Shown: in pieces, positions 1-18,938 of the stretch
Layout of the letters: the number at the start of each line of letters is the position of its first letter
How positions within the stretch are numbered: the stretch's first letter is position 1
Source: an archaeon
Lineage (GTDB): Archaea; Nanobdellota; Nanobdellia; Woesearchaeales; GW2011-AR9
Length of the DNA stretch: 48,705 nt
Direction: 5' to 3'
Assembly (NCBI GenBank): GCA_023265925.1
Contig: JAHFSD010000004.1
Span: 1-48,705 of the forward strand
The notes under the pieces: generated by a model
What the model saw: the letters and a program-made list of their open reading frames with translations, nothing else
Databases searched by the model: none
What the model was told of the DNA's origin: nothing
Translations under genes and position numbers: made by a program

Positions 1-815
1 CGTTCCCACCTGATGGCCCATGCCCCGGCTGCCGCAATGGACCATGATGACAATCTGCCCAGCTTTGGTGATGCCCATCGCCTTGGCTGCAGGCCAGTCA
101 TAGACATTGCCTTCCTGCACTTCCTGAATCTCTAAATAATGGTTGCCGCTGCCTAACGTGCCCAGTTGATTGAAACCACGCATTACTGCTTTATCAGAAA
201 CTTTTTCCGGATTGGCCTGGGCAATTTTACCGTGATCTTCAATATGCTCGATATCGCTTGGCCAGGCATAGCCGTTTCGGACACACCATTGCGCGCCGTC
301 ACGCATGACTTCTTTGAATTGTTCTCTGGTAATTTTAACGAAGCCTTTGCAGCCAACTCCCGCAGGAACGGCTTTATAGAGTTCGTCAACTAGTTGTTTG
401 ATTTTTGGTTTGACTTCATCGATAGTAAGGTTAGTACTGATCAATCTCATGCCACAATTTATGTCAAACCCAATTCCCCCAGGAGAAATTACTCCACCTT
501 GTTCGGGATCAAATGCGGCCACTCCACCGATAGGAAATCCATAGCCCCAAATGTCTCCACTTAGCACGCAACTAAGTGAAAATGACCGTCGGGCATGCAA
601 TAAGCATACTTCTGGATTCCCGGAAGAGAAGCGACATTAGTGACCTGGTTAAAGACACCCTCATCCATCGATTGAATGAGTTCTTCGGTAGCAATGATTC
701 TTGCCGGAACCAGCATCCCTTGCTTGTATGATAGGGGTAATTCCCAGATCACGTCACTAATCTTCTTTAATTCTGGCGGAGGGCCAATTTTATGTTGTAC
801 TTGTTCTTGTTCCAT
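1..815 (-). CDS. rtcB: RNA-splicing ligase RtcB, split into exon 1 (582-815) and exon 2 (<1-549); runs off the window's left edge
   Basis: Exon 1 reads MEQEQ...NVASLPGIQKYAYCMPDGH. My translation of exon 2 from 549 down reads WGYGFPIGGVAAFDPEQGGVISPGGIGFDINCGMRL...QLGTLGSGNHYLEIQ...MVHCGSRGMGHQVGT, all hallmark RtcB motifs, open to position 1. SD-like GGAGGG lies upstream of the ATG. Confidence 0.96.
550..581 (-). other. Putative 32-nt bulge-helix-bulge (BHB)-type mRNA intron in rtcB
   Basis: mRNA: GAC-GGUC-AU^U-UUCACUUAG-UUGCGUG-CUAAGUGGA-GACA-UU^U-GGGGC. It has a 9-bp intron stem, a central helix GGUC/GACA (3 bp plus a G.A mismatch) and two 3-nt bulges. Cutting after the 2nd nt of each bulge joins CAU+UGG (His-Trp). 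The insert carries an in-frame TAA (561-563). Confidence 0.75.
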
Positions 816-999
816 AAATGATTCCCTCCTTGATTGTTAAACAGTAATATTGGGAACAGGTACTTGACTTCCAGGGCCCCAACAGTCTTGATCTTATATC
901 GTGCTCTTTTAAAGCTTTCTGTAGATTTATGAGATTTTCTCTTTTGATGGAAAGAAGCCCGCCGAAATCTTTTTATAGGAAGCTGATTTTGAGGGCACT

Positions 1000-1302
1000 A
1001 TGCCGCTGATTAAGATTGCCACGACCACTGAACTAAACCCCGGCCAGGGTAAGCCGGTAGTAGCCAATGGCAAACCTCTGGCTTTGTTCAATGTCGCTGG
1101 AACCTTCTTTTGCATCGACAATACCTGCTGTCATGTCGGCGGTCCGCTGGGAGAAGGCTCTTTGGAAGGAACAACTGTTGTCTGCCCCTGGCATGGCTGG
1201 GAGTTTAACGTGACCACCGGTGAATGCCTGATGCCGGGCGGAGCGAAAGTACAGTCCTATAAAGTAGAAGTACAGGGGAAAGATGTGCTGGTGGAAATTT
1301 AA
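1000..1302 (+). CDS. Rieske [2Fe-2S] ferredoxin (NirD/dioxygenase ferredoxin-like)
   Basis: Rieske boxes CCHVGGPL (CxH) and CPWHGWEF (CxxH). TTTTATA box at 971-977. Confidence 0.92.
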   Translation: MPLIKIATTTELNPGQGKPVVANGKPLALFNVAGTFFCIDNTCCHVGGPLGEGSLEGTTVVCPWHGWEFNVTTGECLMPGGAKVQSYKVEVQGKDVLVEI

Positions 1303-17949: not shown

Positions 17950-18525
17950 ATGGCCAAGACTATTAAAGTAACCTTACCGGAGTTACCCGAAAGCTATCGG
18001 AAAGTGCTTCATTATTTTTTTTCTTTTCCCGAACAATCGATCAGCCTCAATGAACTGGCTAAGAAGGTGCAGGCCTCCAAGACGGCAGCCAAAGCAGCAG
18101 TCGTGCGTCTGGCAGCTGAAGGGTTGCTGCAGAAGGAACTGGTTGGCAATGCCTGGAGAATAGCTGCGGTTCCCCAGAATCCCCTGCTGGCGATGAGAAA
18201 GATACCCTATAACTTAGGGCTGATCTATGAATCAGGTATTCTTGCCCGGGTGCAGCAGAAAATGCCGGAAGCCCGTGCCATCGTCCTGTTTGGGAGTTAC
18301 CGCTGGGGCACGGACAATGAACAGAGCGACATTGACCTGGGAGTGGAAGTGTTGGGCAGCCAGGAGCTGCGTATAGAACTGCTCGGTGTCATTGAAAAGC
18401 TCGGTTTTCGCAGAAAAGTTCACGTCAATCTTCAGATTTTTTCCCGAACCGGGATAAACTTAAATTTATTCACGAATATTGCCAATGGCATTGTCTTAGC
18501 TGGGCTGTTAGAGGTACAGCCATGA
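17950..18525 (+). CDS. wHTH-fused minimal nucleotidyltransferase (MNT antitoxin)
   Basis: N-terminal HTH (LNELAKKV...L..EGLL). LFGSY.WG...SDIDL motif. Confidence 0.9.
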   Translation: MAKTIKVTLPELPESYRKVLHYFFSFPEQSISLNELAKKVQASKTAAKAAVVRLAAEGLLQKELVGNAWRIAAVPQNPLLAMRKIPYNLGLIYESGILARVQQKMPEARAIVLFGSYRWGTDNEQSDIDLGVEVLGSQELRIELLGVIEKLGFRRKVHVNLQIFSRTGINLNLFTNIANGIVLAGLLEVQP

Positions 18526-18938
18526 GACAAAAACACCGCGACACCAAAAATGCCGCCAGCATAATAGAGGCTGCGGTGAAGCAGATAGAATATACTTTAA
18601 CCCTGGCGTCTACTGATGATTCGGCATTTAATATCATCAGGAACGTCTATGAATGTTTTAGGATGTTAGGCGGGGCGTTATTAGTGGCGAAAGGCATTGA
18701 ATCGCAGGATCATCTTGCTCCCCTCCGGGAACTGCTGCAGCTCAATGTGGAAACGTCACGGCCGACGAAACTGCTGGAGAACTTACGGACGATCAGGCAC
18801 AATATTAACTATTACGGCTATACCCCAAAAAAGGTGGAAGCGGATGATGCCCTCTCCTGGGCCCGGGCTTGTTTTCAGCCCTTGGTTGAGGCCGTTCGAC
18901 AGGAAATAGGGAAGCTACCCGGTGCACAGAGACAATAA
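18522..18938 (+). CDS. HEPN-domain protein (partner toxin)
   Basis: All-helical; Y.CFR.L..ALL..KG...DH and RHNINYYG. Coupled to the MNT gene. Confidence 0.75.
   Translation: MRQKHRDTKNAASIIEAAVKQIEYTLTLASTDDSAFNIIRNVYECFRMLGGALLVAKGIESQDHLAPLRELLQLNVETSRPTKLLENLRTIRHNINYYGYTPKKVEADDALSWARACFQPLVEAVRQEIGKLPGAQRQ

What the first reader, a model, noticed from the sequence alone, without database searches (positions are those of the whole stretch)
540..600. Candidate BHB intron inside the mRNA of the splicing ligase RtcB itself (self-referential splicing circuit)
Seen: rtcB is otherwise intact in the window but has 32 extra nt (550-581) exactly between the codons for H and W of PDGH-WGYGFPIGG. 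The insert adds an in-frame TAA and a frameshift. The RNA folds as: exon stem (C588-G548, CCC/GGG, G-C), central helix GGUC/GACA (3 bp plus G.A), 3-nt bulge AUU, 9-bp intron stem with a 7-nt loop, and a second 3-nt bulge UUU. Established: archaeal splicing endonuclease EndA cuts after the 2nd nt of each BHB bulge, RtcB ligates the 2',3'-cyclic phosphate and 5'-OH ends, and archaeal mRNA introns are known mainly from crenarchaeal cbf5. Applying that rule gives CAU^UGG and restores the frame precisely. Inference: RtcB synthesis would need both EndA cleavage and RtcB ligation, a feedback loop coupling ligase level to splicing or RNA-repair state, reminiscent of IRE1/XBP1 splicing. I am not aware of this having been described.
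Basis: partly seen in the sequence, partly recalled or inferred. Interest (0 to 1): 0.95.

Follow-up and report, generated by a model that had tools for sequence, protein, structure and literature searches.

The report
Splicing-type mini-intron inside archaeal rtcB
The gene for the RNA ligase RtcB in this small groundwater archaeon is interrupted by a 32-base tRNA-type (bulge-helix-bulge) intron, which recurs at the same codon boundary in 16 related genomes, so the enzyme that seals such splices probably has to seal its own messenger RNA.

Summary
On the minus strand, rtcB has 32 extra bases (550-581) between the His codon (584-582) and the Trp codon (549-547). They carry an in-frame TAA and shift the frame.

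[quoted passage not shown] Cutting after the second base of each 3-nt bulge restores the frame exactly.

New evidence:
- The same site holds a 30-33 nt insert in 17 genomes from 8 families of one order (506 distinct genomes searched).
- All 17 parse as the same BHB and all carry in-frame stops; 4 have lengths that are not multiples of three.
- The intron stem covaries: 26 double-change cells against 2-6 in slid controls.
- Synonymous exon positions that pair in the motif are fixed only in intron-bearing genes.
- The genome encodes EndA, Archease and intron-containing tRNAs.
- cbf5 in the same genome carries two further frame-restoring BHB mini-introns.

No RNA data were available, so splicing is inferred.

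RtcB's dependence on its own activity follows logically. An adaptive feedback circuit is untested, and the patchy distribution argues against one: the same-genus relative has no intron. A divergent 298-aa RtcB paralog could bypass the loop.

Verdict: a real, apparently undescribed new member of the archaeal mRNA BHB-intron class.

The parts
582..815 (-). rtcB exon 1: ATG at 815-813 to the His codon at 584-582 (78 codons)
   Evidence: ORF list. tblastn against G001 RtcB: residues 2-77, 76% identity. Pfam RtcB positions 1-22.
550..581 (-). 32-nt BHB intron. Predicted 5' cut between 582 and 581, 3' cut between 550 and 549. In-frame TAA at 563-561.
   Evidence: Sequence, fold, homologous inserts at the same site in 16 other genomes, covariation.
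1..549 (-). rtcB exon 2, starting with the Trp codon at 549-547. It runs off the window at about residue 259.
   Evidence: Pfam RtcB positions 23-198, E = 6.1e-66. 88% identity to G001 RtcB residues 77-259. The rest of the gene is on G000:C3:1-657.
584..587 (-). 5' strand of the central 4-bp helix H (GGUC, from the Gly-His codons)
   Evidence: Pairs with 552-555. Pair counts over 17 genomes: G.A 15 / G-C 2; G-C 17; U-A 14 / C-G 2 / C.A 1; C-G 17.
581..583 (-). Bulge 1 (AUU); the cut is predicted after its second base
   Evidence: Parse. In all 17 genomes the bulge is A, then U or C, then N. The geometry follows the BHB definition in PMC4090602 (passages).
556..580 (-). Intron-internal helix h': arms 580-571 and 565-556 (10 bp), loop 570-566
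   Evidence: Fold. The inner segment folds at -10.7 kcal/mol, z = -4.34, matched by 0 of 500 shuffles. The outer five pairs covary.
552..555 (-). 3' strand of central helix H (GACA), inside the intron
549..551 (-). Bulge 2 (UUU); the cut is predicted after its second base, so exon 2 begins with U549
   Evidence: In all 17 genomes the third bulge base is the U of the Trp codon.
544..548 (-). 3' strand of outer helix h (GGGGC, from the Trp-Gly codons). It pairs with C588 and with 591-594 (GCCC), with G590 and A589 bulged.
   Evidence: helix 1: 96.5% of cells paired. Codon test: Pro is CCC in 16 of 17 intron-bearing genes and the Gly after Trp is GGC in 15 of 17, whereas both codons are mixed in intron-less genes.
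588..594 (-). 5' strand of outer helix h (G594 C593 C592 C591 ... C588), within the Met-Pro-Asp codons

Best explanation
Bases 550-581 are an archaeal bulge-helix-bulge (BHB) intron inside the coding region of rtcB.

Proposed mechanism:
1. The pre-mRNA folds so that the Gly-His codons (GGUC) pair with GACA near the intron's 3' end, forming the central helix. That helix is flanked by two 3-nt bulges, a 10-bp intron hairpin and a weak exon-exon helix.
2. The genome's single alpha-type splicing endonuclease EndA cuts after the second base of each bulge (between 582 and 581, and between 550 and 549), leaving a 2',3'-cyclic phosphate and a 5'-OH.
3. RtcB, helped by Archease, joins the His codon directly to the Trp codon. 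This restores the PDGH-WGYGFPIGG motif and the full reading frame. RtcB probably also circularises the 32-nt intron.
4. Unspliced transcripts can only yield an 84-aa fragment.

Shown: the anatomy, conservation of the site, covariation, exonic codon constraint, and presence of the enzymes.

Inferred: the cleavage and ligation themselves, and hence that new RtcB synthesis depends on pre-existing RtcB or on another ligase.

The intron is most likely a tolerated, vertically drifting and repeatedly lost (or exchanged) mini-intron rather than a dedicated regulator.
For: (1) Anatomy and frame.

(2) The same H|W site carries an insert in 8 of 113 genomes of the family and in 10 of 401 sampled genomes of the order, G000 included. 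That is 17 distinct genomes in 8 families, out of 506 distinct genomes searched. Insert lengths are 30 nt (3 genomes), 31 (1), 32 (3) and 33 (10).

(3) In all 17 of 17, the 3-nt bulges fall so that cutting after their second base restores the frame, and the intron hairpin has 8-11 bp. The central helix has at least 3 of 4 standard pairs in 16 of 17 (G478 has 2 of 4). In 15 of 17, at most 2% of shuffles fold the hairpin as well. All 17 of 17 have an in-frame stop.

(4) Covariation on alignment A1:
- 90.8% of cells paired, against 42.9-54.0% with partners slid by 1-3 columns;
- 26 double-change cells, against 2-6;
- covariation score 0.342, against at most 0.119;
- 0 of 500 shuffles reach the observed values;
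- intron-stem pair 3 occurs as GC 7, UA 6, CG 3 and AU 1;
- central-helix pair 3 is U-A in 14 genomes and compensated to C-G in 2.

(5) Synonymous exon sites that pair in the motif are fixed only in intron-bearing genes:
- Pro codon: CCC in 16 of 17, against CCT 8, CCA 3, CCC 2, CCG 1 in the 14 intron-less genes where the motif was found (14 of 28 loci).
- Gly before His: GGT 14, GGC 3, against GGT 3, GGC 4, GGA 5, GGG 2.
- Gly after Trp: GGC 15, GGA 2, against GGA 6, GGT 5, GGC 2, GGG 1.
- The neighbouring Tyr and next Gly codons vary freely in both sets.

(6) The exons are conserved: 76-89% identity to the intron-less RtcB of G001, with no other stops.

(7) Machinery is present:
- EndA (101.9 bits, N-terminal plus catalytic domain);
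- Archease (135.4 bits);
- tRNA genes with inserts.

(8) The insert is in the DNA: an independently assembled contig of run X1 covers 346-768 with 0 differences.

(9) The 32-mer is unique in the genome.

(10) cbf5 in the same genome has two more inserts (20 and 17 nt) that the same cutting rule removes in frame. The second of these recurs in 3 of 113 family genomes, with lengths 17, 20 and 16 nt.
Against: - No RNA evidence. The only RNA run from the sample laid nothing on the stretch, so no junction and no circular intron was seen.
- The first pair of the central helix is G.A in 15 of 17 genomes, and G478 has only 2 of 4 standard pairs in that helix.
- The outer helix is irregular: 1 bp, a 2-nt bulge, then 4 bp.
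- Only one alpha-type EndA gene was found. Homotetrameric enzymes were classically held to need canonical motifs, although PMC5829648 (passages) reports DPANN alpha4 enzymes with an extra loop alongside disrupted tRNA genes.
- The intron-bearing genes are related to one another, so the covariation and codon counts are not independent events.
Confidence: 0.85

Rival explanations
1. Adaptive self-referential circuit. The intron exists in order to couple RtcB synthesis to EndA and RtcB activity, a feedback switch comparable to IRE1/XBP1.
For: - The dependence of RtcB synthesis on ligation follows logically if the intron is spliced by this pathway.
- All 17 of 17 introns keep an in-frame stop.
- The site lies in a conserved motif.
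- The other intron-bearing gene found, cbf5, also encodes an RNA-processing enzyme.
Against: - Patchy distribution: 8 of 113 genomes in the family, with no insert in the same-genus genome G001. On a quick tree of 30 exon-2 sequences, intron rows are scattered and need about 7 changes, at least 2 of them forced.
- The loop would be positive feedback, with no obvious homeostatic value.
- The unspliced product is only a truncated fragment, not an alternative protein.
- There is no sign of a regulated endonuclease.
- In-frame stops in short AT-rich loops are partly expected by chance and by common descent.
Confidence: 0.1
2. Bootstrap by a second ligase. The exons are joined not, or not only, by canonical RtcB but by the divergent 298-aa RtcB-family paralog (G000:C39:1563-2456), so the loop is not truly self-referential.
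For: - The paralog is an intact ORF. It scores 30.2 bits against Pfam RtcB (cut-off 27) over model positions 257-406.
- It is conserved at 44-59% identity in 8 other genomes of the 113 in the family.
- 3 of the 8 rtcB-intron genomes in the family carry it (G000, G021, G081), against 6 of 105 intron-less ones.
Against: - 5 of the 8 intron-bearing family genomes show no paralog at E <= 1e-10 (their completeness is 67-96%).
- The three that carry it are close kin, so the enrichment may reflect a single event.
- No solved relative was found by sequence, and its activity is unknown.
Confidence: 0.1
3. Translational recoding. Ribosomes bypass or hop over the insert, as in phage T4 gene 60, or shift frame, without any RNA splicing.
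For: A stable hairpin and an in-frame stop lie in the gap. G000 alone has a CATTT repeat that could look like a take-off and landing pair.
Against: - The repeat has period 31, so landing on it gives the wrong frame (sequence). Its intron-end copy is present in only 2 of 17 introns, G000 and G215.
- The stop is 3-7 codons after the His codon, not adjacent to it.
- The conserved features are the two 3-nt bulges and a 4-bp helix that includes exon bases. That is what EndA recognises, not what bypassing needs. (The features of gene 60 are recalled, not looked up.)
Confidence: 0.03
4. Broken gene, assembly artefact, or a dispersed mobile element that landed in rtcB with a target-site duplication.
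For: - The gene is fragmented across two contigs in this assembly.
- A contig in DNA run X1 lacks the 32 nt (joint 548 to 581, laid at 85% likeness).
Against: - 17 independent assemblies carry a homologous insert at the same bond.
- The exons are conserved and otherwise open.
- An independent contig reproduces the insert exactly.
- The 32-mer has no other copy in the genome; the next best matches are at most 18 nt.
- The repeat is not conserved.
- The intron-less contig is expected, because intron-less relatives exist.
Confidence: 0.02

Closest known systems
BHB intron in the cbf5 pre-mRNA of Crenarchaeota (Watanabe et al. 2002, known to me only through citations; Yokobori et al. 2009, PMC2738675, passages read)
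   Same: - A small, tRNA-intron-sized BHB intron inside a coding region.
- Its removal restores the frame.
- The host gene encodes an RNA-processing enzyme.
- Distribution is patchy, with gains and losses.
- The motif is often relaxed.
   Different: - The host gene here is rtcB.
- The lineage is a small-genome DPANN-type order; the best named relatives are Woesearchaeota and Nanoarchaeota MAGs.
- A single alpha-type EndA gene was found, rather than the crenarchaeal heterotetramer.
- The interrupted message encodes the ligase of the pathway itself.

This genome's own cbf5 also carries two mini-introns. I could not establish whether their positions match the crenarchaeal one.
BHB introns of archaeal tRNA and rRNA precursors
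   Same: The same motif: a 4-bp helix flanked by two 3-nt bulges (PMC4090602, passages). The same enzymes, EndA and RtcB/Archease, and a similar length range.
   Different: The motif sits in a translated message, and part of it is built from codons whose synonymous positions are then constrained.
BHB intron in the 5' UTR of Haloferax volcanii HVO_1309 (PMC7714728, passages read)
   Same: An mRNA substrate of the archaeal splicing endonuclease outside tRNA and rRNA.
   Different: That intron lies in an untranslated leader and does not interrupt a reading frame.
HAC1/XBP1 unconventional mRNA splicing (PMC4090602 passages; the rest recalled)
   Same: - Protein-only, non-spliceosomal excision of a short intron from an mRNA.
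- A tRNA-type ligase, which is RtcB in animals.
- Excision changes the reading frame.
   Different: - There the cut is made by the stress-activated kinase-nuclease IRE1 at twin stem-loops, not by EndA at a BHB.
- It is a regulated switch between two protein products.
- Here no regulator is known and the unspliced product is a stub.
Inteins in rtcB
   Same: A selfish element in a conserved N-terminal region of the same gene. Two genomes of this order (G034, G038) show open frames of about 1000 aa, with RtcB model positions 1-50 and 45/49-426 about 1.4 kb apart. I read this as an intein but did not verify it.
   Different: Inteins are removed at the protein level and stay in frame without stops.

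Membership tests
Archaeal BHB (bulge-helix-bulge) intron | Central helix of 4 bp between the two splice sites | tested here: met
   GGUC (587-584) pairs with GACA (555-552): 3 standard pairs plus G.A. Over 17 genomes, pairs 2 and 4 are invariant G-C and C-G. Pair 3 is U-A in 14, compensated to C-G in 2, and C.A in 1. Pair 1 is G.A in 15 and G-C in 2. The helix is imperfect at one end.
Archaeal BHB (bulge-helix-bulge) intron | Two 3-nt bulges on opposite strands, each holding a splice site after its second base | tested here: met
   The bulges are 583-581 and 551-549. With this rule the excised length equals the insert, and the frame is restored in 17 of 17 genomes. Sliding the pairing by 1-3 columns drops paired cells from 90.8% to 42.9-54.0%.
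Archaeal BHB (bulge-helix-bulge) intron | Flanking helices h (exon-exon) and h' (intron-internal) | tested here: met
   h' has 8-11 bp in all 17, with covariation. h is irregular (1 bp, a 2-nt bulge, then 4 bp), but 96.5% of its cells pair and its synonymous sites are fixed. The motif is closest to hBHBh' with a weak h.
Archaeal BHB (bulge-helix-bulge) intron | Splicing endonuclease EndA encoded by the organism | tested here: met
   One match at G000:C53:25240-25500 (101.9 bits), in a 220-aa ORF with N-terminal and catalytic domains. The subunit type (homotetramer) is inferred from finding only one gene.
Archaeal BHB (bulge-helix-bulge) intron | 3'-phosphate RNA ligase RtcB (and Archease) available | tested here: met
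   The interrupted rtcB is the only full-length copy. Archease is at C42:7079-7489. A divergent 298-aa paralog is at C39.
Archaeal BHB (bulge-helix-bulge) intron | Spliced junction and excised (circular) intron present in RNA | not testable with these tools
   The only RNA run from the sample (X7, kept as contigs) laid nothing on window 1-1000.
IRE1/XBP1-HAC1 type regulated unconventional splicing | A dedicated stress-activated endonuclease that cuts twin stem-loops | not tested
   I made no search for an IRE1-like nuclease. The motif here is a BHB, the EndA substrate, so I do not claim membership.
IRE1/XBP1-HAC1 type regulated unconventional splicing | Unspliced and spliced messages give two distinct functional proteins | tested here: not met
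   The unspliced message ends after 84 codons in G000, and in all 17 genomes at a stop inside the insert.
Programmed translational bypass (T4 gene 60 type; features recalled) | Matched take-off and landing codons, with a stop directly after take-off | tested here: not met
   Only 2 of 17 introns (G000, G215) end in ...CATT, the intron-end copy of the repeat, and in G000 the repeat's period of 31 gives the wrong frame. Stops lie 3-7 codons downstream of the His codon.

The most novel reading that the evidence does not exclude
In this order of small-genome archaea, mini BHB introns have been recruited into the messages of RNA-processing enzymes: rtcB itself, and cbf5. Production of the splicing ligase, and of the H/ACA pseudouridine synthase, would then be gated by the cell's current endonuclease and ligase capacity. 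For RtcB this makes an autocatalytic, heritable on-state. The divergent mini-RtcB paralog would serve as a starter or back-up ligase.
Probability: 0.12. Interest if true: 0.9.

Novelty: new member of a known kind. Interest (0 to 1): 0.72.

Why it matters
According to a 2020 paper I read in passages (PMC7714728), the only BHB intron reported inside an archaeal coding region was the one in crenarchaeal cbf5, known since 2002.

A second host gene, found in a distant lineage, would show that protein-gene splicing by the tRNA machinery is not a crenarchaeal oddity. The case is supported by 17 genomes, covariation and codon constraint, and comes with new cbf5 introns in the same genome.

It also matters for annotation. 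Such genes are called as frameshifted or split pseudogenes. That would wrongly remove an essential enzyme from metabolic reconstructions and completeness estimates of DPANN genomes.

The ligase having to mature its own message gives a clean, testable case of molecular self-dependence in archaea. It also offers a short natural BHB cassette in a coding context for reporter and circular-RNA work.

Tried and rejected
RNA evidence. The look-up of sequencing runs listed no RNA holder. One metatranscriptome from the same sample (X7) laid nothing on window 1-1000. This says nothing either way.

Structure-only genome scan for other BHB-interrupted ORFs. Canonical cut sites gave 2448 hits, against 2422-2565 with the 3' site shifted by 1-2 nt. 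After further filters the counts were 1346 against 1273-1361, and for compact hairpins 13 against 12-17. There was no excess, and one of my filters even dropped rtcB, so the scan is uninformative and I drew nothing from it.

Homology survey. I fetched 1.12 Mb of the same-genus genome G001 (about 6.5 kb of contig tails left out). I compared all stop-to-stop frames of at least 60 aa by tblastn in both directions.
- There were 26 split candidates in G000 and 28 in G001.
- Only rtcB and two sites in cbf5 had a BHB whose length equals the extra DNA and restores the frame.
- Four other G000 candidates and one G001 candidate that I read by eye were antisense or intergenic frames, or hairpin repeats.
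- The survey cannot see introns shared by both genomes, genes absent from G001, or short exons.

G031, whose rtcB looked split 98 nt apart, turned out to hold a scaffold gap of Ns with duplicated flanks. It is not an intron.

Wider pattern search in the phylum. 9 of 401 genomes matched. Six were already-known introns. The three new matches read as uninterrupted frames, and the reversed-pattern control gave 4 hits. So there was no true case among the 122 sampled genomes of other orders. The pattern needs the WGYGF codons, so it can miss divergent genes.

Tree of RtcB.
- Only the quick tree finished.
- It used exon 2 only.
- 30 of 43 rows were usable. 11 intron-less loci gave no match to my motif, and two intron rows were too short.
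- Two of the included rows (G066, G215) were mis-extracted at 504 aa.
- I use the tree only for the statement that intron rows are scattered within the family.

Other points:
- Target-site duplication was rejected (see the rivals).
- I opened no supplementary files. Those of PMC5829648 (EndA types and tRNA sets of DPANN) and PMC2738675 (cbf5 intron positions) may bear on the EndA-type and cbf5-position statements.
Full report
WHAT IS THERE. The window begins inside rtcB, which lies on the minus strand. The gene starts at the ATG at 815-813. Seventy-eight codons end with ...Met-Pro-Asp-Gly-His, the His codon being 584-582. Thirty-two bases follow (581-550). Then the Trp codon at 549-547 opens a frame that stays open to window base 1.

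Pfam places exon 1 on RtcB model positions 1-22 and exon 2 on positions 23-198, so nothing of the protein is missing at the join. Read through from exon 1, the insert gives TAA at 563-561 (ORF 561..815, 84 aa) and shifts the frame.

The rest of the gene is on another contig. G000:C3:1-657 encodes residues 276-494 of the G001 protein, and about 16 residues are unassembled.

THE FOLD. The minimum-energy fold of 530-605 (-24.1 kcal/mol, z = -2.37) shows an outer GCCC/GGGC helix, GUC/GAC, a 3-nt AUU bulge and a 10-bp hairpin.

Laid out as a BHB motif, the parts are:
- central helix GGUC (587-584) against GACA (555-552), with 3 pairs plus G.A;
- bulge 1 at 583-581;
- hairpin arms 580-571 and 565-556;
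- bulge 2 at 551-549;
- an irregular exon-exon helix, C588-G548 plus 591-594 with 547-544.

The topology matches pre-tRNA: the 5' strand of the central helix is exon and the 3' strand is intron. In the review PMC4090602 (passages) the motif is a 4-bp helix flanked by two 3-nt bulges, with anticodon bases 34 and 35 in the helix. With the canonical intron after base 37, the cut falls after the second bulge base. Applied here, that rule removes exactly 581-550.

COMPARATIVE EVIDENCE. An HMM search of 40 relatives showed two same-family genomes whose rtcB match was 30 nt longer and contained stops. tblastn put both inserts exactly between His and Trp.

A degenerate pattern for the flanking codons with a 12-60 nt gap then found the insert in 8 of 113 genomes of the family (7 of 58 genera). 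It also found it in 10 of 401 sampled genomes of the order, G000 included. In all this is 17 distinct genomes in 8 families, among 506 distinct genomes searched. The same-genus genome G001 has no insert.

Insert lengths are 30 nt (3 genomes), 31 (1), 32 (3) and 33 (10). Four are therefore not multiples of three, and all 17 contain an in-frame stop.

All 17 show the same layout:
- central helix GG(U/C)C against G(A/G)C(A/C);
- first bulge A, then U or C, then N;
- a hairpin of 8-11 bp;
- a second bulge whose third base is the U of the Trp codon.

Sixteen of 17 have at least 3 of 4 standard pairs in the central helix; G478 has 2 of 4. In 15 of 17, at most 2% of shuffles fold the hairpin as well.

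The hairpin sequences differ widely but stay paired. On alignment A1 with a structure I wrote by hand (14 pairs), 90.8% of cells pair, against 42.9-54.0% when partners are slid by 1-3 columns. There are 26 cells with changes on both sides, against 2-6 in the slid controls. The covariation score is 0.342, against at most 0.119, and no shuffle of 500 reaches the observed values. Stem pair 3 occurs as GC 7, UA 6, CG 3 and AU 1. The central-helix U-A pair is compensated to C-G in 2 of the 3 genomes that use GGC for the Gly codon.

These genomes are kin, so the counts are not independent events. The slid controls, however, keep that relatedness.

A SECOND, INDEPENDENT SIGNAL lies in the exons. The bases of the Pro, Gly and following Gly codons that pair in the motif sit at synonymous positions.
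- Pro: CCC in 16 of 17 intron-bearing genes. In the 14 intron-less genes where my motif was found (14 of 28 loci), Pro is CCT 8, CCA 3, CCC 2, CCG 1.
- Gly before His: GGT 14, GGC 3 in intron-bearing genes, against GGT 3, GGC 4, GGA 5, GGG 2.
- Gly after Trp: GGC 15, GGA 2, against GGA 6, GGT 5, GGC 2, GGG 1.
- The Tyr codon and the next Gly codon, which are outside the motif, vary freely in both sets.

This is what selection for an RNA structure that spans the exon-intron borders predicts.

ARTEFACT AND MOBILE-ELEMENT CHECKS.
- A contig assembled independently from DNA run X1 covers 346-768 without a difference.
- Another X1 contig, laid at 85% likeness, skips the 32 nt. This is expected, because intron-less relatives exist.
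- blastn-short finds no second copy of the 32-mer in the 1.2-Mb genome; the next best matches are at most 18 nt.
- The CATTT repeat has period 31, and its intron-end copy (intron ending ...CATT) is present in only 2 of 17 introns, G000 and G215.

THE MACHINERY.
- EndA: the genome has one EndA gene, a 220-aa ORF with N-terminal and catalytic domains.
- Ligase: it has Archease and no other full-length rtcB.
- tRNA genes: Rfam's tRNA model finds only 8 matches in a genome judged 86% complete, and 5 of them are 88-142 nt long. ARAGORN finds 10 with default settings, 8 of them with introns.
- Literature: PMC5829648 (passages) reports alpha4-type EndAs with an extra loop in DPANN lineages, together with highly disrupted and incompletely predictable tRNA sets. 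This fits, although I did not test for that loop.
- Organism: the best named relatives of the protein are labelled Woesearchaeota, Nanoarchaeota or simply archaeon.

IS rtcB SPECIAL?
- A structure-only scan was uninformative.
- A homology survey against the whole same-genus genome found only two interrupted genes in G000, rtcB and cbf5.
- cbf5 (G000:C3) has a 20-nt insert (18485-18504) with helix UCCG/CGGA, bulges ACA and AGU, and a 5-bp hairpin.
- It also has a 17-nt insert (18576-18592) with helix CCUU/AAGG, a 5-bp outer helix GGGGA/UCCCC, and almost no inner stem.
- In both cases the same cutting rule restores the G001 reading frame.
- The second cbf5 insert recurs in 3 of 113 family genomes, with lengths 17, 20 and 16 nt. 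The first was found only in G000, 1 of 113.
- So this lineage carries several mRNA mini-introns, and rtcB is one host among at least two. Both hosts are RNA-processing genes.

THE SELF-REFERENCE. If the intron is removed as proposed, new RtcB requires a working ligase. Cells would inherit RtcB protein at division, as they inherit ribosomes and polymerases.

That this is a selected control circuit is doubtful:
- The intron is absent from most relatives, including the closest one.
- On a quick exon-2 tree of 30 sequences, intron rows are scattered within the family: 7 changes by parsimony, at least 2 forced by supported branches (see the limits under Tried and rejected).
- The loop would be positive feedback.

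A divergent 298-aa RtcB-family protein (C39:1563-2456; Pfam 30.2 bits against a cut-off of 27) occurs in 9 of 113 family genomes. Those 9 include 3 of the 8 with the rtcB intron. It might act as an alternative ligase, but 5 of the 8 lack it, and the three that have it are kin.

KNOWN OR NEW. PMC7714728 (2020, passages) states that apart from its own 5'-UTR case, only the crenarchaeal cbf5 mRNA intron had been reported. PMC2738675 (2009, passages) says that splicing of other archaeal pre-mRNAs was predicted but not confirmed. Six full-text searches (listings and abstracts only) showed no paper describing an intron in rtcB, or mRNA BHB introns in DPANN archaea. Subscription journals are largely outside that library.

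VERDICT. The insert is very probably a genuine BHB intron (0.85), a new member of a known but very small class, in the ligase's own message. The regulatory-circuit reading remains speculative (about 0.1). The missing piece is RNA or biochemical proof.

Noticed in passing
L232:1429-1448 and L232:1520-1536 (= G000:C3:18485-18504 and 18576-18592, plus strand): cbf5, the H/ACA pseudouridine synthase gene, is interrupted by two mini BHB introns of 20 and 17 nt in the same genome. Each restores the frame under the cut-after-second-bulge-base rule. The 17-nt intron has a strong outer helix and almost no inner stem (hBH type). It recurs in G051 (20 nt) and G081 (16 nt).
   Followed up: partly
L003:1057-1953 (= G000:C39:1563-2459, plus strand): A 298-aa, strongly divergent RtcB-family paralog (Pfam RtcB 30.2 bits over model positions 257-406; no solved relative by sequence). 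It is present in 9 of 113 family genomes at 44-59% identity. Its function is unknown. It could be a second ligase.
   Followed up: partly
whole genome G000: Only 8 Rfam tRNA matches (7 over the cut-off) and 10 default ARAGORN calls in a 1.2-Mb genome judged 86% complete. Most of those found carry inserts of 13-70 nt, and one call has an 837-nt 'intron'. Most tRNA genes seem too disrupted for standard models to find.
   Followed up: no
G034:C5:5617-8445 and G038:C10:68763-71582 (no loci kept): rtcB in two genomes of the order lies in open frames of about 1000 aa, with model positions 1-50 and 45/49-426 about 1.4 kb apart and no stops. This looks like an intein some 27 residues downstream of the intron site.
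   Followed up: no
G000:C33:1543-1700, C57:31807-31921, C37:11949-12101: Short palindromic hairpin repeats built around ...TAAGGGGC...GCCCCTTAT... occur in several intergenic places. They caused false split-gene calls and may be a small dispersed repeat family.
   Followed up: no
G000:C5:54913-55249, minus strand: A stretch conserved with G001 in no sensible protein frame, carrying about 73 extra nt relative to G001. It may be a structured RNA gene with an insert.
   Followed up: no
L236:583-681 (G031:C69): The apparent split of rtcB in G031 is a run of N with duplicated flanks. It is a scaffolding artefact, not an intron.
   Followed up: yes
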